Source of the DNA: a virus
Strand: one strand, 5' to 3'
Virus genome (UHGV): UHGV-0329186
DNA length: 23,864 bases
In this document: positions 15,062 through 23,834 of the stretch, in pieces
Position numbering within the stretch: position 1 is the first letter of the stretch
Layout: the number at the start of each line of letters is the position of its first letter
The notes under the pieces: model-generated
What the model was told of the DNA's origin: nothing
Database searches by the model: none
The model's input: only the letters and a program-made list of their open reading frames with translations
Translations under genes and position numbers: made by a program

Positions 15062-15295
15062 ATGTCAACGAAGAACAGAACCCGCAGAACAACAACCCGC
15101 AACATCCGCTTTCCTAACCAAATGATTGAACAAATTAACATCGCTCTTGTTCAAAAAGGGTCCGGGAATTTCTCAGCCTGGGTCATTGAAGCCTGCCGCC
15201 GGAGACTGTGCTCAGAAAAAAGAGTTTCGCCTGAAGCAAACAAAGAAAAGAGTGACATTACTGAATTGCTCAGAAAACAGGTCAGACCAGATTGA
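15062..15295 (+). CDS. Small basic protein, possibly ribbon-helix-helix DNA-binding; resembles the YlcI/YnfO (DUF3950) family of E. coli cryptic prophages (from memory, unverified)
   Basis: 77 aa ORF on the strand opposite the late operon, 200 bp from cosN; Arg/Thr-rich N-terminus then NIRFPNQMIEQINIAL...FSAWVIEACRRRL. Confidence 0.45.
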   Translation: MSTKNRTRRTTTRNIRFPNQMIEQINIALVQKGSGNFSAWVIEACRRRLCSEKRVSPEANKEKSDITELLRKQVRPD

Positions 15296-15351
15296 AGCAA
15301 TTTAGATAATCGTGCAGACTACCCCCCTCATATCACATGGAAGGTACTACA

Positions 15352-15762
15352 ATGGCTCAGATTGCCATTTTTAAACAAATATTCGATAAAGTGCGAAATA
15401 ATTTAAACTATCACTGGTTTTATTCTGAACTAAAACGTCACAATGTCTCACATTACATTTACTATTTAGCCACAGAGAATATTCATCTTGTTCTTGAAAA
15501 CGATAATACGGTTTTAATAAAAGGACAGGGTAAGGTTGTAAATGTAAGATTTTCAAAAAATAAATGCCTTATAGAAGCCACCTTAAAAGGATTCAAATCA
15601 GGAGAGTTATCATTTTACGAATACAGGAAAAATCTTGCTACAGCAGGGGTTTTCAGATGGATTACAAATATCCACGAAAACAAAAGGTATTACTATACCT
15701 TTGATAATTCATTACTCTTTACTGAGAACATTCAGAACACTACACAAATATTTCCGCACTAA
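15352..15762 (+). CDS. YbcV/YdfO-like (DUF1398) protein, function unknown
   Basis: AT-rich ORF; start moved to the second ATG (15352), which has a GGAAGG Shine-Dalgarno 7 nt upstream and gives 136 aa ([17 protein letters not shown]...); sits in the Rz-to-cos moron position. Confidence 0.55.
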
Positions 15763-17471: not shown

Positions 17472-17744
17472 ATGGACAATAGCACCATTTCTCTACAGGA
17501 GTTGCTCGACTGCATTTCCAGGCTTCGGGATGATGTAAATGCCCTCACTGTTGCATTTTCACATCTGGCCTTATCAATTCCCAGGGAGCAAATGCTGCCA
17601 ACGCTGGCATCCATTCATTTTGAATCACGCAACCCCAAATGGTCCCAGGAACAACAAAATTCTTTCAAGTGGCTGGCGGCATTGCTGGAAGAAAATTATG
17701 CTGGCAAAACTACCATTTCGGCGGAGTCTTCAGGGAACCAGTAA
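17472..17744 (+). CDS. Hypothetical protein, antisense to the late operon inside the lysis cassette
   Basis: 90 aa ORF with AAGAGGA Shine-Dalgarno 6-7 nt upstream of the ATG; no homolog recognised by eye; its 3' end overlaps the 3' end of the convergent 17710-18054 ORF. Confidence 0.4.
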   Translation: MDNSTISLQELLDCISRLRDDVNALTVAFSHLALSIPREQMLPTLASIHFESRNPKWSQEQQNSFKWLAALLEENYAGKTTISAESSGNQ

Positions 17745-18058: not shown

Positions 18059-18274
18059 TTACTCTCCCCGTGCCGCCTTACGACGGTCCTCTCTGATTTT
18101 GAAATACAGGTTAGTCAGATATGTCAGCAGCCCAAACAGCAGACTCCCCAGCACGCCTATTGCCGCCCACTGAGACGGGGAAACCCTGTCCAGCAACTGC
18201 AGGAACCAGTAGCCCGTTCCCACCGCTGACGTGGTGTATGACACACCTGTTGTGATTTTTTCCATCTGGTCCAT
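18059..18274 (-). CDS. S: Class II holin, phage-21 S-type (pinholin) with dual start motif
   Basis: 71 aa from ATG 18274 ([26 protein letters not shown]...[36 protein letters not shown]); second in-frame ATG at 18265 (Met4); two TM segments and a basic C-terminus as in S21. Confidence 0.85.
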
Positions 18275-18581: not shown

Positions 18582-18770
18582 TCACTCCGGCTCAGTTGCA
18601 CCACTGACCACCACATCACCTTCTGCTGCAATCGCCTGCATCAGGGTATAAGGGGTTATGGCCACCGGACTACCAAACGGCTGCCCGCCCTCTTTCAGTT
18701 TATGTGTCAGCTTTTCCGCAAGATCTGACGGCGGCGCCGCCCTGACAACATCATAGTGTTTAAATGCCAT
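18582..18770 (-). CDS. Small conserved hypothetical protein upstream of the holin (possibly DUF1737-like)
   Basis: 62 aa from ATG 18770 (MAFKHYDVVRAAPPSDLAEKLTHKLKEGGQPFGSPVAITPYTLMQAIAAEGDVVVSGATEPE) with a GGAAAG RBS-like sequence; the track ORF starts 4 codons earlier at GTG. Confidence 0.4.
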   Translation of the reverse strand: MAFKHYDVVRAAPPSDLAEKLTHKLKEGGQPFGSPVAITPYTLMQAIAAEGDVVVSGATEPE

Positions 18771-19023
18771 GGTTCTTTCCACTATCTGAAAAATAATTCT
18801 TTAAAATACCGGATATGTAATACAGAAAAAACACAAAACCATACCTTAAATAAAAACCTGATTATCAAGCAGATATGCATGGATAAACTACAAGACGAGA
18901 TATAAACCACCCTGCATTTAAATAAACAACATCAGAAAAATAATTCTGCGCTATGGTTTACATTCAAAAATATCATTTATACTTTTCAGAACATCACCAG
19001 CAAGGCATAAACAAGGAAGCTAA

Positions 19024-19359
19024 ATGAAGTGGATTGTGATTGATACAGTTATCCAGCCATCATGCGGAATATCTTTTTCAGTCATATGGAGTAAAGTAAA
19101 ATTAATAATCTGGTATCAATCGGATGCTTTCTTACCTCCTGAAAGTATATTTACACTGACTCACACAGGTATCATGCTCAATAACAAAGTGCTACCTGTA
19201 ACCATTTACAACGTAGTACCATTCAATAAAACATTCTGGAATTTAATCAAAAACAGCCAGGAATGCCCTACAAATACAGATAACGTATTGAATGAATGCT
19301 TTAATAACCGTTGCACTCTGCAAATATGTCCTTATGGACTAAAACAACAAAGTCCATAA
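19024..19359 (+). CDS. AT-rich hypothetical protein (moron cargo), antisense to the late operon
   Basis: 111 aa ORF with AAGGAAG Shine-Dalgarno; markedly lower G+C than neighbours; four Cys in the C-terminal 30 residues; followed by two strong hairpins. Confidence 0.45.
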
Positions 19360-19415
19360 GGAGTTTACTCACATCTGACAAAATCAATATAAACAGCCCC
19401 TCCGGAGAGGGGCTG
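19333..19415 (+). terminator. Two stable hairpins at and just after the 3' end of the 19024-19359 ORF
   Basis: tatggact-(10 nt)-agtccata at 19333-19358 (8-bp stem) and cagcccctc-cgga-gaggggctg at 19394-19415 (9-bp stem); neither has a clean U-tract. Confidence 0.3.
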
Positions 19416-19806
19416 GAGAGTGGCGCTATGTGCCATTGCATGGTGCCGGGTGCCTCCCGGTGAATTCAGTACCAGCACCTGAATCCGCGATTATCCCATA
19501 TACCTACTCGCTGATTGCCCCTCCGCACAGGGGGATTCACCATGCCAGTTTCTTTTAACAAACTCCCCGCAAACCAGACAACAGTCAACCGCCTGAATTG
19601 TGAAGTATTTAAAAATTTCTCCCGCTAACTGATACCCGGCTAACAGTCTGGCGTTTTCTTTTTCAGCAACGGGAAAGCAACAACCACCACACCCGCCACC
19701 AGCACACCGTCAGCCAGCACTGACATTATCCGGCTGCTGCAATGCCATTCACAAAAACAGTAAGCAATCACTTTTTACCGTAACAGGTGATAATCCAGAT
19801 ATGTAT

Positions 19807-20160
19807 CTACCCCAGATGAGTAATCCGAAGTTCATCCATACCACAGGTCCTGGCTATTCTGTTGTACTCCTGAACAAGAGCAAATAATTCTGAATTAGCA
19901 ACCATGAACTCATCGCAAACCCTCTGTATAGCATCACTATTCAGAAGAATAACGTCTCTTCCCGAAAGACGATCAGGAGTACAGAACAAAACTGTCAAAC
20001 GGCTGAAGGCCTTTGCTCGTGCTGCATTGACTATATCAATACGCTGCCTAAGGATGAAACACCCCGACGCCTCATCAATATTCACTCTACCCACACCATA
20101 TGAATGATAAATATTTAATACTGAAAAAACCATTAGACCGTATAACAAACACTCAATCAA
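19807..20160 (-). CDS. Hypothetical protein in the late-operon orientation; start uncertain (TTG at 20160 or ATG at 20133)
   Basis: 108-117 aa ORF, AT-rich; hydrophobic N-terminus; no family recognised; weak RBS at both candidate starts. Confidence 0.35.
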   Translation of the reverse strand: MIECLLYGLMVFSVLNIYHSYGVGRVNIDEASGCFILRQRIDIVNAARAKAFSRLTVLFCTPDRLSGRDVILLNSDAIQRVCDEFMVANSELFALVQEYNRIARTCGMDELRITHLG

Positions 20161-20270
20161 TACTTAACAGAACTTTTATTTTTGACAAACATATAATATT
20201 TTCAACAATATCCTGAGCCAGGTATATTCCAGTATAAGGCTCTGCCGGAAGGAATCTGGAAGAATGAATA

Positions 20271-20347
20271 TGGCGCGCTGTACTGGATTCGAACCAGTGA
20301 CCGATTGCTTAGAAGGCAATTGCTCTGTCCGGCTGAGCTAACAACGC
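20271..20347 (-). tRNA. tRNA-Arg (anticodon TCT)
   Basis: Minus strand folds as a cloverleaf: acceptor GCGTTGT/ACAGCGC, D stem GCTC/GAGC, anticodon stem ATTGC/GCAAT with loop CT-TCT-AA, T arm ACTGG-TTCGAAT-CCAGT, discriminator G and encoded CCA. Confidence 0.85.
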
Positions 20348-20360
20348 TGAATACCGATAA

Positions 20361-20446
20361 TGGACCGCCATCGGGGACCCGCCCCCCCCCCCGCACCAAC
20401 ACCCCTGTTATCGTGTCGTCTGCTCTTCCTGATAAGCTAATGGCGG
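20361..20446 (-). pseudogene. Degenerate tRNA-like element (possible decayed tRNA) containing a G11 homopolymer
   Basis: 7-bp acceptor-like inverted repeat CCGCCAT...ATGGCGG followed by T-CCA; D-arm-like GCTT/GAGC with a GG-containing loop; anticodon and T arms do not fold canonically. Confidence 0.3.
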
Positions 20447-20453
20447 TTTGTGA

Positions 20454-20529
20454 TGGTGGCCCTTGCTGGATTTGAACCAGCGACCTGGCGATTATGAGTC
20501 GCTCGCTCTCACCACTGAGCTAAAGGACC
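20454..20529 (-). tRNA. tRNA with CAT anticodon (Ile2/ileX-ileZ type, or Met)
   Basis: Minus strand GGTCCTTTAGCTCAGTGGTGAGAGCGAGCGACTCATAATCGCCAGGTCGCTGGTTCAAATCCAGCAAGGGCCACCA: canonical acceptor, D and T arms, anticodon loop CT-CAT-AA, encoded CCA; very similar to E. coli ileX as I recall it. Confidence 0.85.
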
Positions 20530-20565: not shown

Positions 20566-20592
20566 AATAAAAAACCCGCTCGGCGGCGGGTT
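20566..20592 (-). terminator. Intrinsic terminator downstream of the putative late promoter (tR'-like)
   Basis: Minus strand AACCCGC-CGCCGA-GCGGGTT followed by TTTTATT; lies between the Q stop and the first tRNA. Confidence 0.45.
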
Positions 20593-20672: not shown

Positions 20673-21494
20673 TTACCTAGTTACCTTTTTTAACTGCCGC
20701 TCAGCCCATGCTTCTTCAATATCAAACCGGGTCACCAGCGCATCATAGAATTTCTTAACTGTTTTTTCCCATGACGCGCGTGTTATCTGGTTTGTCACCT
20801 CGCATATAGCATTAAATGCCTCCGTTGATGGTAGCCTTTCATAGCCACGACCACCACAACGCTGGCAGTCTCTGATAACAGGCATACCACGTTTTACCGA
20901 CTCTTCACGATGAATGGCGACACCACGCCCACGGCAATCCTTACAGGCGGTGGAAACCTCACCCTTCCCGCCACACTCCGGACAGGCAACTTTTACCACC
21001 TCCCTGACTTTTTTCCATTCTTCCCAGTAAGACGGATACACACCTTTCGTACACTTTGCCCATACCGGCGGCTTACCATCCGGATACTGGACCTTGTTTG
21101 TAAAAACTACGCTTTCAATAAATTTTTCCCCATAGCAACAAGGGCACAGCTTTTTACTCGCTGCGCTGCGGGCATAATCCTCAAAAGCGCACGAAGCCAT
21201 AATGCGCATCACTACCGGTTTTATTTCTGCCGGAAGTTTTCTCAACGCCGCCACACGATCGCACCGACTGAGTGCATAATCTGCCAGTAATTCTGTTGCC
21301 CGCGCCCTGTCATTCATACTGATGCCCATCTTCCCCAGGAACGCAGAAAACCCCATCTCAGCCCGATTCTGTGTCATGCCCTGCGCGGCCATCACATCAG
21401 TGATACTCAGCGCATCTTTTGACGTTGAGGCCGATGCATCGGTCAGGCAAGGGGATTTTGGGGAGTAGTATTTCGGTAAATCTTCCAGTTTCAT
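20673..21494 (-). CDS. Putative late-gene antiterminator Q (long Q21/QuuQ-like type) with CxxC zinc-finger motifs
   Basis: 273 aa ORF immediately upstream of the PR'-like promoter and downstream of rusA (ATGA overlap); motifs ACPECGGKGE...CKDCRGRG...CQRCGGRG. Confidence 0.55.
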   Translation of the reverse strand: MKLEDLPKYYSPKSPCLTDASASTSKDALSITDVMAAQGMTQNRAEMGFSAFLGKMGISMNDRARATELLADYALSRCDRVAALRKLPAEIKPVVMRIMASCAFEDYARSAASKKLCPCCYGEKFIESVVFTNKVQYPDGKPPVWAKCTKGVYPSYWEEWKKVREVVKVACPECGGKGEVSTACKDCRGRGVAIHREESVKRGMPVIRDCQRCGGRGYERLPSTEAFNAICEVTNQITRASWEKTVKKFYDALVTRFDIEEAWAERQLKKVTR

Positions 21495-22928: not shown

Positions 22929-23318
22929 TTACCTCCAGATGCGTTGCTGGAATGTGCGGGATGGACGCGGTGGGCGTTCGGAGTAAGGCAATCTGACTGA
23001 GATTATCCAGTGACGGTAGTCGAGGCTAAGGGCTTTTTTAACCTCGTATCCGCGCCTGCGGTAACACTGAATTATCCATTCAGCCTGCTCTTCAGTGCAT
23101 GGTGGATGCTGGAACCAGTCCGATTTGAATGCATGAAAACGCCGTCCGCACCTGCTGGCAAAGACGGCAGAATCATCAGAATTGTGTAATTTGGTATCGT
23201 GCGCCATCGGTTGTCTCTGCTGGCGCAGCAGGTGCCAGTTGTTCAGGCTGGCGTATAAAGTATAAATAAACTGGTTCCAGTGTAAAGCCCCTACATTAAT
23301 GGAATAAAAGTCAAACAA
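22929..23318 (-). CDS. Hypothetical nin-region protein (start uncertain: TTG at 23318 or ATG at 23207)
   Basis: ORF whose stop is 1 nt from the downstream GTG start, suggesting translational coupling; no family recognised. Confidence 0.35.
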   Translation of the reverse strand: MFDFYSINVGALHWNQFIYTLYASLNNWHLLRQQRQPMAHDTKLHNSDDSAVFASRCGRRFHAFKSDWFQHPPCTEEQAEWIIQCYRRRGYEVKKALSLDYRHWIISVRLPYSERPPRPSRTFQQRIWR

Positions 23319-23472
23319 CAGATTGTTGGGATAAACACAACGCTTATTATTAAAAGCGATTAGATAAATTAAATTTTAATGTTATGCAATTTTACCAGAT
23401 CATCATAACATCTCGTTTGAAACCACCGAAACAACAACCATATCAATATTGATTATGTTAAAGTGAGTAAAT

Positions 23473-23559
23473 ATGGAAAACAACAAATCTGCACATTACG
23501 CTCCTTTTTTATCTGTGATACTTTTTGTTTTATGCTGTGTGTGGGCATTATTTTTATAA
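23473..23559 (+). CDS. Candidate 28-aa hydrophobic peptide (hypothetical small membrane protein)
   Basis: ATG with a weak GAG RBS; MENNKSAHYAPFLSVILFVLCCVWALFL; possible upstream TTGAAA-N18-TATCAA promoter; embedded in AT-rich DNA. Confidence 0.25.
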   Translation: MENNKSAHYAPFLSVILFVLCCVWALFL

Positions 23560-23569
23560 AAATATTCAC

Positions 23570-23597
23570 AGATAAAATAAACCCGCCGAAGCGGGTT
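23570..23597 (-). terminator. Hairpin plus U-rich tail on the minus strand (terminator-like)
   Basis: Minus strand AACCCGC-TTCG-GCGGGTT followed by TATTTTAT. Confidence 0.3.
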
Positions 23598-23834
23598 AAG
23601 TGCGGGTGCATTGAGGATGCCTGACACATCCGAGGTGGCGAGGGATTTCTCCCTCGCCGGGTCTCTTACTCCTCAGGTTCGTAAACTGTGAAGACAGCGA
23701 CCTCCGTCTGGCCGGTTCGGATTCGTTTGAAGTTCTGGACGGTGCCGGAATAGAATCAAAAATACTTAAGTAGCGCGCAGGGATAAGAGGGATGGTCCCT
23801 TAAAGGGGAGAGCTAATTATCCGGAAGGATTCTG

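What the first reader, a model, noticed from the sequence alone, without database searches (positions are those of the whole stretch)
18783..20270. AT-rich cargo island of unknown function in the Q-to-holin slot, where Stx phages carry stx
Between the tRNA cluster and the holin lies about 1.5 kb that is visibly AT-rich compared with the structural genes (by eye; no computed value). It holds two unrecognised ORFs in convergent orientation. The 19024-19359 ORF (111 aa, Cys-rich C-terminus) is antisense to the late operon and has its own Shine-Dalgarno, a possible promoter (TTTACA...TATACT, short spacer) and two strong downstream hairpins, the classic moron layout. The 19807-20160 ORF (108-117 aa) sits in the late-operon orientation. 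In lambdoid phages this slot is a known hot spot for horizontally acquired cargo such as stx and nanS-p. I recognise neither protein, so a novel host-modulating, toxin or anti-phage function is possible but unproven.
Basis: partly seen in the sequence, partly recalled or inferred. Interest (0 to 1): 0.62.

Follow-up and report, generated by a model that had tools for sequence, protein, structure and literature searches.

The report
Known iraL moron plus STnc100 sRNA
The AT-rich stretch between the phage late-gene activator Q and the lysis genes is real. Its main gene is the already characterised stress-response modulator IraL, next to a known phage small RNA, so only one small conserved protein there remains of unknown function.

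Summary
Window 18783-20270 is the most AT-rich 1.5 kb of the window (39.6% GC against 53.1% overall) and sits between the Q/tRNA genes and the lysis cassette of a lambdoid E. coli prophage.

It is not an island of unknown function.
- **ORF 19024-19359 (+)** is IraL.
- **The "two hairpins"** belong to an STnc100-family sRNA on the opposite (late) strand, 19385-19574 (Rfam 132 bits, threshold 47). STnc100 is a known Hfq-associated prophage sRNA that also lies just downstream of stx2.
- **The second ORF** is a real, selected gene (dN/dS about 0.2, intact in 79 ungapped viral-contig copies). It most likely starts at GTG 20085 (92 aa). It is a predicted two-helix hairpin from a small enterobacterial phage family with no assignable function. 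Elsewhere it is followed by TerB-DUF3927-holin. PGAP leaves it unannotated in every close-copy E. coli record listed (about 1,183 genomes carry it).

Verdict: ordinary and largely already known. The residual interest is this ORF only.

The parts
18957..18991 (+). iraL sigma-70 promoter: -35 TTTACA 18957-62, 15-nt spacer, -10 TATACT 18978-83, TSS A at 18991
   Evidence: The published 5'-RACE mRNA start, ACATCACCAGCAAGGCATAAACAAGGAA (PMC4045071), occurs once in the window, at 18991. The -35, -10 and spacer are identical to CFT073. The generic promoter scan missed it because of the 15-nt spacer.
19024..19359 (+). iraL: 111-aa RssB anti-adaptor of the IraM/IraL family, transcribed against the late operon
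   Evidence: NCBIfam NF007393 scores 161.4 bits against a cut-off of 121. It matches 110/111 aa and 334/336 nt of CFT073 C_RS06710/c1429. It is 59.5% identical to K-12 IraM. PDB 8twd IraM matches at E 8.4e-32. PGAP annotates it as IraM.
19385..19574 (-). STnc100-family sRNA gene (RF02076) on the late-operon strand
   Evidence: cmscan gives 132.4 bits against a gathering score of 47, E 4e-30, covering model positions 1-206. The MFE fold is -74.6 kcal/mol with z -2.26. Homologous copies occupy the same slot in other phages.
19394..19415 (-). Rho-independent terminator hairpin of STnc100 (9-bp stem, 7 GC, then TTTATATT). It lies 35 nt beyond the iraL stop codon, so it may act in both directions
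   Evidence: Terminator scan, Rfam alignment and fold. There is no T-run on the + strand, so termination of iraL here is an inference.
19640..19771 (-). DUF3927 / TciB-like 43-aa hydrophobic mini-protein
   Evidence: Pfam PF13064 at E 1.7e-27. PGAP protein WP_000562553.1. It is 48% identical over 31 aa to P1 TciB.
19807..20085 (-). ORF2 core: 92-aa conserved protein of unknown function (phrog_2873) with a GTG start. Upstream in-frame ATG 20133 and TTG 20160 are probably not used
   Evidence: phrog_2873 at E 1.8e-69. dN/dS is 0.20-0.25 against homologues of about 75% nt identity, with differences by codon position of 19/18/42. Conservation begins exactly at the GTG, and PGAP starts the homologue there. 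Across 79 ungapped copies there are no stops; the extension has 1 synonymous and 6 nonsynonymous changes, the core 5 and 4. AF2 predicts a two-helix hairpin at pLDDT 84.8.
20271..20347 (-). tRNA-Arg(UCU), upstream boundary of the slot
   Evidence: ARAGORN, Rfam, PGAP.
20454..20529 (-). tRNA with CAU anticodon: Met by ARAGORN, Ile (lysidine type, ileZ-like) by PGAP
20573..20592 (-). Terminator-like hairpin just downstream of Q; probable tR' of the late operon
   Evidence: Terminator scan. The role is inferred from lambdoid late-operon architecture.
20673..21494 (-). Q antiterminator
   Evidence: Pfam PF03589 at E 5.8e-54; phrog_127.
18582..18782 (-). DUF1737 stub: the N-terminal remnant of a nanS-p-type esterase gene, and the downstream boundary of the slot
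   Evidence: Pfam PF08410. It matches the first 58 positions of the 634-position profile of phrog_143. PGAP flags it as truncated, missing the C-terminus.
18059..18274 (-). S21-type class II holin, start of the lysis cassette
   Evidence: Pfam PF04971; PGAP.

Best explanation
The interval is a mosaic accessory segment in the Q-to-holin slot of a phi-potB/Qin-like lambdoid E. coli prophage. It is built from independently assorting cassettes.

1. **iraL moron.** iraL is transcribed in the lysogen from its own sigma-70 promoter, against the late operon. Its product binds the RssB adaptor and blocks delivery of sigma-S to ClpXP, which raises sigma-S and general stress resistance in growing cells. 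This is shown for the 99%-identical CFT073 gene and inferred here.
2. **STnc100-family sRNA.** It lies on the late strand, and its terminator hairpin abuts the iraL 3' end. It probably also insulates iraL from the late operon in the lysogen. After induction, Q-modified polymerase would read through it and run antisense across iraL (inferred).
3. **DUF3927/TciB-like mini-membrane protein.**
4. **ORF2.** A 92-aa two-helix-hairpin protein co-oriented with the late operon, so presumably made late from pR'. Elsewhere it is the first gene of a recurrent ORF2-TerB-DUF3927-holin arrangement. My best guess is that it acts as a small protein-binding accessory factor of that envelope- or lysis-proximal module. 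Its target is unknown.
For: IraL:
- NF007393 is above its cut-off.
- 110/111 aa and 334/336 nt match CFT073 iraL, in the same gene order Q-tRNAs-DUF3927-iraL-DUF1737-holin, with 94.9% nt identity over 3.7 kb.
- The -35, -10 and mapped TSS are identical.
- Published work shows RssB binding and sigma-S stabilisation, and expression in lysogens (PMC4045071, PMC7157518, PMC12890032).

STnc100:
- Rfam gives 132 bits, well above threshold.
- There are 12 further copies in the same slot of other phages, all on the late strand.
- In EHEC the family is transcribed, confirmed by Northern blot and Hfq-associated, and a copy sits 75 nt downstream of stx2.

DUF3927.

ORF2:
- Purifying selection and intact frames.
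- It always lies downstream of Q/tRNAs in late orientation.
- It is followed by TerB-DUF3927-holin in E. coli, in L100 and in Citrobacter at 41% identity.

Cassette independence:
- mEp460 has ORF2-DUF3927-STnc100 without iraL.
- 640R1 has iraL-STnc100 without ORF2.
- The 80 viral contigs show both patterns.
Against: - There are no expression or binding data for this strain.
- The protein differs from CFT073 IraL at one residue (V25 versus I25), and the promoter region has a 7-bp indel near -60 plus 4 substitutions.
- There is no T-run after the hairpin on the + strand, so iraL termination there is unproven.
- This STnc100 copy scores lower than others (132 against up to 172 bits), lacks part of an internal loop, and has a modest fold z-score of -2.26.
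- ORF2 has a weak Shine-Dalgarno and a GTG start, and PGAP does not call it.
- Its function rests only on position and neighbourhood. TerB is absent here, so any module-partner role may be defunct.
Confidence: 0.88

Rival explanations
1. The island carries a novel toxin, anti-phage defence or other previously unknown host-modulating cargo.
For: The segment is AT-rich and sits in a known cargo slot. ORF2 has no Pfam, NCBIfam or PADLOC hit and no informative structural match. Only 20 representatives were found among 1.84 billion proteins.
Against: The moron ORF is IraL. The hairpins are STnc100. PADLOC has no hit for any ORF tested. ORF2 lies in the late operon orientation without a convincing promoter of its own: promoter-like sites are no more frequent than in shuffled sequence. 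That is atypical for lysogen-expressed defence genes.
Confidence: 0.07
2. ORF2 (19807-20160) is not a gene. It is a chance open frame in conserved non-coding or regulatory DNA downstream of the tRNAs.
For: PGAP annotates nothing there in any close-copy E. coli record listed, among about 1,183 genomes carrying it. The Shine-Dalgarno is weak and the start is GTG. A terminator-like hairpin lies inside it. The N-terminal extension accumulates nonsynonymous changes.
Against: dN/dS is 0.20-0.25 with an excess of third-position differences against homologues of about 75% nt identity. The frame is kept open down to 21-41% aa identity in other genera and contexts. There are no stops in 79 copies. The AF2 model is confident. 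PGAP does annotate the divergent homologue.
Confidence: 0.08
3. The iraL copy here is a silent or decaying relic of no consequence to the host, like many cryptic-prophage genes.
For: It is flanked by degraded genes: the DUF1737 stub and a PGAP pseudo-CDS. It is AT-rich at 33% GC, which may attract H-NS silencing (my inference from general knowledge). The paper notes some strains carry a mutated -35 copy.
Against: The ORF is intact and 99% identical to the functional allele. The -35, -10 and TSS are unchanged. The gene is at least 99% identical in 1,263 genomes. The same promoter fragment is active in CFT073 and in K-12.
Confidence: 0.1

Closest known systems
IraL (c1429, formerly ycgW) of uropathogenic E. 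coli CFT073, potB prophage island (Hryckowian et al. 2014, PMC4045071)
   Same: 110/111 aa and 334/336 nt are identical. The -35, -10 and TSS are identical. The neighbours are the same: Q, tRNAs, DUF3927, STnc100 region, DUF1737, S21-type holin.
   Different: V25 replaces I25. There is a 7-bp indel and 4 substitutions in the -100 region. CFT073 has an IS200 and three tRNAs after Q, whereas this window has two tRNAs.
IraM (K-12, next to e14) and RssC (Salmonella): PmrD-fold RssB anti-adaptors
   Same: Same family: NF007393, and PDB 8twd at E 8e-32. The four C-terminal cysteines and contact residues C14, F18, W30, I61 and Y62 are conserved.
   Different: Only 59.5% aa and 68% nt identity. There is no homology to the K-12 iraM upstream region. 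The literature reports IraL binding only the RssB N-terminal domain and acting in log phase rather than under Mg2+ starvation. T13S, H63N and I64V differ.
STnc100 (RF02076), also described as EcOnc27/sRNA103, related to PasD: prophage sRNAs of Salmonella and E. coli
   Same: A full-length covariance-model match with terminator, on the late strand between tRNAs/cargo and the esterase/holin genes. This is the position of the copy 75 nt downstream of stx2B.
   Different: It scores lower than other copies and has a shortened internal loop. Here it is convergent with iraL rather than following stx or preceding nanS-p. The targets of this variant are unknown.
TciA-TciB(-TciC) of phage P1 and JLK-2012 (TerB-family protein plus DUF3927 mini-protein)
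   Same: The DUF3927 ORF is TciB-like (48% identity over 31 aa). In relatives, the pair TerB-DUF3927 sits in this slot, near tRNAs as in P1.
   Different: No TerB/TciA gene is present here. The DUF3927 protein is the short 43-aa form. ORF2 is not TciC, which is 35 aa and gave no profile hit.
Lambdoid morons and Q-S slot cargo (stx, nanS-p, bor/lom)
   Same: An AT-rich insert with its own promoter, transcribed independently of the late operon, in the same slot as stx and nanS-p.
   Different: The cargo is a regulator of host proteolysis, not a toxin or esterase. The esterase gene is reduced to a DUF1737 stub.

Membership tests
IraL / IraM anti-adaptor family | Sequence reaches the curated family threshold (NCBIfam NF007393) | tested here: met
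   161.4 bits against a cut-off of 121, covering residues 1-110.
IraL / IraM anti-adaptor family | iraL allele: at least 95% identity over the whole coding region to CFT073 iraL (criterion used in PMC4045071) | tested here: met
   334/336 nt and 110/111 aa.
IraL / IraM anti-adaptor family | iraL-type sigma-70 promoter and mapped transcription start conserved | tested here: met
   The published 5' end sequence is found at 18991. The -35, spacer and -10 are identical to CFT073.
IraL / IraM anti-adaptor family | RssB-contacting residues of IraM (T13, C14, F18, W30; I61, Y62, H63, I64) | tested here: inconclusive
   C14, F18, W30, I61 and Y62 are kept; T13S, H63N and I64V differ. The same residues occur in functional CFT073 IraL.
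IraL / IraM anti-adaptor family | Binds RssB and lengthens sigma-S half-life | not testable with these tools
   Shown for the CFT073 protein that differs by one residue (PMC4045071).
STnc100 sRNA (Rfam RF02076) | Covariance-model score above the gathering threshold over the full model | tested here: met
   132.4 bits against 47, E 4e-30, model positions 1-206, not truncated.
STnc100 sRNA (Rfam RF02076) | Intrinsic terminator at the 3' end, and the prophage late-strand context shared with other copies | tested here: met
   GC-rich hairpin plus T-run on the minus strand. 12 other copies in the Q-S slots of other loci are all co-oriented with the late genes.
STnc100 sRNA (Rfam RF02076) | Expressed as a discrete Hfq-associated RNA | not testable with these tools
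   Reported for EHEC copies: RNA-seq and Northern in PMC5331693, Hfq-bound EcOnc27 cited in PMC12711010.
DUF3927 / TciB-like | Pfam PF13064 above threshold | tested here: met
   95.6 bits against 25, E 1.7e-27.
DUF3927 / TciB-like | Paired with an upstream TerB/TciA gene | tested here: not met
   Only 35 nt separate it from ORF2 and there is no TerB ORF. TerB is present in L006, L100, L101, JLK-2012 and P1.
Moron (independently expressed prophage cargo) | Own promoter, own termination signal, deviant base composition, not needed for the phage cycle (variable presence) | tested here: met
   Promoter and TSS; hairpin 35 nt after the stop codon; 32.6% GC; absent from mEp460 and from part of the viral contigs that keep the neighbouring genes.
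Known anti-phage defence systems (PADLOC) | Any component model matched | tested here: not met
   No hit at E up to 0.1 for IraL, ORF2, DUF3927 or the neighbouring small ORFs.
phrog_2873 / phrog_4827 (ORF2 family, function unknown) | Profile match and conserved open frame under purifying selection | tested here: met
   E 1.8e-69 and 5e-05; 9-10 of 10 family members match both profiles; dN/dS 0.20-0.25.

The most novel reading that the evidence does not exclude
ORF2 is a 92-aa two-helix-hairpin protein conserved as the first protein gene after Q and the tRNAs, and recurrently followed by TerB-DUF3927-holin. It could be an undescribed late-operon function, for example a partner of the TerB/TciB module acting on the envelope, lysis timing or superinfection. 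Standard annotation leaves it uncalled in E. coli genomes that carry a close copy. A second, weaker possibility is that the convergent iraL and STnc100 transcripts overlap at their 3' ends and regulate each other, which would couple sigma-S control to an Hfq sRNA.
Probability: 0.15. Interest if true: 0.4.

Novelty: already known. Interest (0 to 1): 0.15.

Why it matters
It matters mainly as a correction. The "unknown cargo" is a published prophage-borne regulator, IraL, carried by about 27% of complete E. coli genomes. It rewires the general stress response and is enriched in uropathogens and Shigella. The adjacent hairpins are a known Hfq-associated sRNA family that also accompanies stx2.

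The survey also shows how this slot is assembled from interchangeable cassettes joined at STnc100 copies. It flags one small, selected but uncharacterised gene that PGAP left unannotated in every close-copy E. coli record listed (about 1,183 genomes carry it). That gene is a modest annotation and function gap, not a discovery.

Tried and rejected
- Pfam, NCBIfam and PADLOC gave nothing for ORF2.
- Foldseek of the ORF2 model against PDB and BFVD gave only generic helical hairpins, with E above 0.3. The afdb50 library was unavailable.
- A profile search against PDB sequences gave GapR/UPF0335 at E about 0.1. I rejected this as insignificant, and Pfam shows no DUF2312 hit either.
- I tested whether ORF2 is P1 TciC. 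It is not: TciC is 35 aa, and the ORF2 profile finds nothing in the P1 tci region, JLK-2012, 640R1, phi296 or the K-12 iraM region.
- I tested whether the upstream region resembles the K-12 iraM promoter region. It does not: the best local alignment is 22 nt.
- I tested whether the longer 108- or 117-aa forms of ORF2 are real. This is disfavoured: conservation starts at the GTG, and the extension carries 6 nonsynonymous changes against 1 synonymous.
- The PGAP pseudo-CDS at 19430-19555 (+) lies antisense within STnc100, so I treat it as spurious.
- The generic promoter scan found no more sites than in shuffled sequence and missed the real iraL promoter because of its 15-nt spacer.
- The first alignment (A3) was too divergent for the search for related loci.

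Full report
**Setting.** The window is a lambdoid prophage, 99.9% identical over the finding's 1488-bp span to E. coli MLI121, with its late operon on the minus strand. The order is:
- Q antiterminator, 20673-21494
- a terminator-like hairpin, 20573-20592
- tRNA(CAU), 20454-20529, and tRNA-Arg(UCU), 20271-20347
- the interval in question
- a truncated DUF1737 stub, 18582-18782
- a 53-aa ORF
- S21-type holin, YdfR, lysozyme and Rz
- terminase and the head and tail genes.

**Observation.** The interval 18783-20270 is 39.6% GC, against 53.1% for the window. Only 0.1% of equally long windows are as low, and the lowest 600-bp window coincides with the iraL cassette. Composition is patchy. The two ends are AT-rich (32.6% and 31.4%) and the middle is not (55% and 51%). 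The two ORFs, the Shine-Dalgarno, the Cys-rich C-terminus, the TTTACA/TATACT pair and the hairpins are all present.

**ORF 19024-19359 (+) is IraL.**
- It exceeds the NCBIfam threshold for the IraM subfamily (161 against 121 bits).
- It matches the crystallised IraM core (8twd, E 8e-32).
- PGAP names it anti-adapter protein IraM.
- Fetching the CFT073 potB prophage showed the same gene order and a 111-aa protein identical at 110 positions. The two share 334/336 nt, and 94.9% nt identity over 3.7 kb of surrounding DNA.
- Identity to K-12 IraM is 59.5%, matching the 58.9% that Hryckowian et al. report for IraL against IraM.
- That paper (PMC4045071) shows IraL binds the RssB N-terminal domain and doubles sigma-S half-life in log phase. 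It also shows iraL works from its native promoter in K-12.
- The 5' end mapped there by RACE occurs once in the window, at 18991, seven bases after TATACT.
- Later work reports iraL (c1429) induced at 37 degrees C, and IraL levels raised in a fur mutant.
- iraL at 90% identity or more is present in 1,446 of 5,426 complete E. coli genomes.
- The upstream region has no similarity to that of K-12 iraM.

**The hairpins are an sRNA.** Rfam places a full-length STnc100 (RF02076) at 19385-19574 on the minus strand, at 132 bits against a threshold of 47.

Twelve more copies were found in the Q-S slots of the other loci fetched, one to four per locus, all on the late strand. In a stx-less Traversvirus the copy sits between the tRNAs and nanS. 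In Stx2 phages a copy lies 75 nt after stx2B. The family is transcribed in EDL933, has been confirmed by Northern blot, and overlaps the Hfq-bound EcOnc27. A 2026 preprint relates it to PasD.

The terminator lies 35 nt beyond the iraL stop codon but has no T-run on the plus strand. Bidirectional termination, and any iraL/STnc100 3' overlap, are therefore inferences.

**Other content.** At 19640-19771 (-) lies a 43-aa DUF3927 protein (Pfam E 1.7e-27). It is TciB-like, with 48% identity to P1 TciB over 31 aa. The PGAP pseudo-CDS at 19430-19555 lies antisense inside STnc100 and is probably spurious.

**ORF2.**
- The frame 19807-20160 (-) matches phrog_2873 (E 1.8e-69), yet PGAP annotates nothing there in any close-copy E. 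coli record listed; about 1,183 genomes carry it.
- It is nevertheless a real gene. Against homologues of about 75% nt identity, dN/dS is 0.20-0.25 and differences fall 19/18/42 by codon position.
- The frame stays open down to 21-41% aa identity.
- 79 ungapped viral-contig copies have no stop codon.
- Conservation begins exactly at GTG 20085, where PGAP starts the divergent homologue. The upstream extension carries 6 nonsynonymous changes and 1 synonymous, against 4 and 5 in the core. The product is therefore most likely 92 aa.
- AlphaFold2 gives a confident two-helix hairpin (pLDDT 84.8), which has only generic structural matches.
- The family is tiny, with 20 representatives in 1.84 billion proteins. 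In the species-level genome set it was found only in E. coli, Citrobacter and one evidently enterobacterial contig mislabelled as Bacillota.
- Its position is constant: it sits downstream of Q and the tRNAs, co-oriented with the late genes.
- In E. coli MS 119-7, in L100 and in Citrobacter braakii it is followed by TerB, DUF3927, holin and endolysin. In this window TerB is absent.
- It is not P1 TciC.

**Assembly of the slot.** The cassettes assort independently. mEp460 has ORF2-DUF3927-STnc100 followed by a TolA-like gene instead of iraL. 640R1 has iraL-STnc100 without ORF2. Among 80 viral contigs with ORF2, most carry the full arrangement, and a minority lack iraL and DUF1737 but keep the holin. 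The whole 1.5-kb arrangement occurs in 863 complete E. coli genomes.

**Mechanism.**
- Shown elsewhere and inferred here: IraL sequesters RssB, sigma-S escapes ClpXP, and the lysogen has higher stress resistance during growth.
- Inferred: the STnc100 terminator insulates the convergent units in the lysogen, and Q-modified polymerase overrides it after induction and transcribes antisense to iraL.
- Inferred: ORF2 and DUF3927 are made late. ORF2 is probably a small binding protein linked to the TerB/TciB module.

**Verdict.** It is a moron in the stx slot that modulates the host, but it is not novel. Two of the three main elements, IraL and STnc100, are already described. Only ORF2 is uncharacterised, and nothing points to a toxin or defence role.

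Noticed in passing
window 17472-17744 (+): A 90-aa ORF (phrog_2411, PGAP hypothetical WP_001351274.1) lies on the plus strand between the lysozyme and YdfR genes and overlaps the 3' end of YdfR. It is another antisense, moron-like ORF inside the lysis cassette, and is also present in CFT073.
   Followed up: partly
window 15062-15762 (+): A second AT-rich plus-strand island (35% GC) carries YnfO and a DUF1398 protein. The DUF1398 protein is 43% identical to K-12 YcgX, which lies near iraM (two small genes between). The K-12 iraM-ycgX region therefore looks like a remnant of this type of prophage lysis region.
   Followed up: partly
L008 2434-5136; L002 3609-4266; L010 2344-5839: STnc100 occurs in arrays of two to four co-oriented copies within single Q-S slots, at the junctions between different cargo genes. 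This suggests the copies serve as recombination joints for cassette exchange.
   Followed up: no
window 18582-18782 (-): The DUF1737 ORF is the N-terminal stub of a nanS-p-type sialate esterase gene; PGAP flags the C-terminus as missing. The esterase cargo has therefore been lost from this prophage.
   Followed up: partly
window 19430-19555 (+): The PGAP 'hypothetical protein, partial' pseudo-CDS lies entirely antisense within the STnc100 sRNA. It is probably an annotation artefact, and it recurs in CFT073.
   Followed up: partly
window 20454-20529 (-): ARAGORN calls this CAU-anticodon tRNA Met, whereas PGAP calls it Ile (lysidine type). It corresponds to the ileZ-like tRNA of Stx phages. The window has two tRNAs where CFT073 has three.
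   Followed up: no
window about 18925-18935: Relative to CFT073, one copy of a 7-bp AATAAAC repeat is missing about 60 nt upstream of the iraL transcription start. Any effect on regulation is unknown.
   Followed up: no
window 20381-20393: An uninterrupted C-rich run (cccgccccccccccc) lies between the two tRNA genes. Such a homopolymer could vary in length or be error-prone in sequencing.
   Followed up: no
L100 (JAEWMQ010000075.1): A 2.7-kb contig binned as a Bacillota MAG carries a typical enterobacterial prophage segment (ORF2 homologue, TerB, DUF3927, holin). It is most likely a binning contaminant.
   Followed up: no
window 23666-23821 (-): A hokD type I toxin gene lies at the early-region end of the window, inside a third AT-rich patch (38% GC over 23150-23650).
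   Followed up: no
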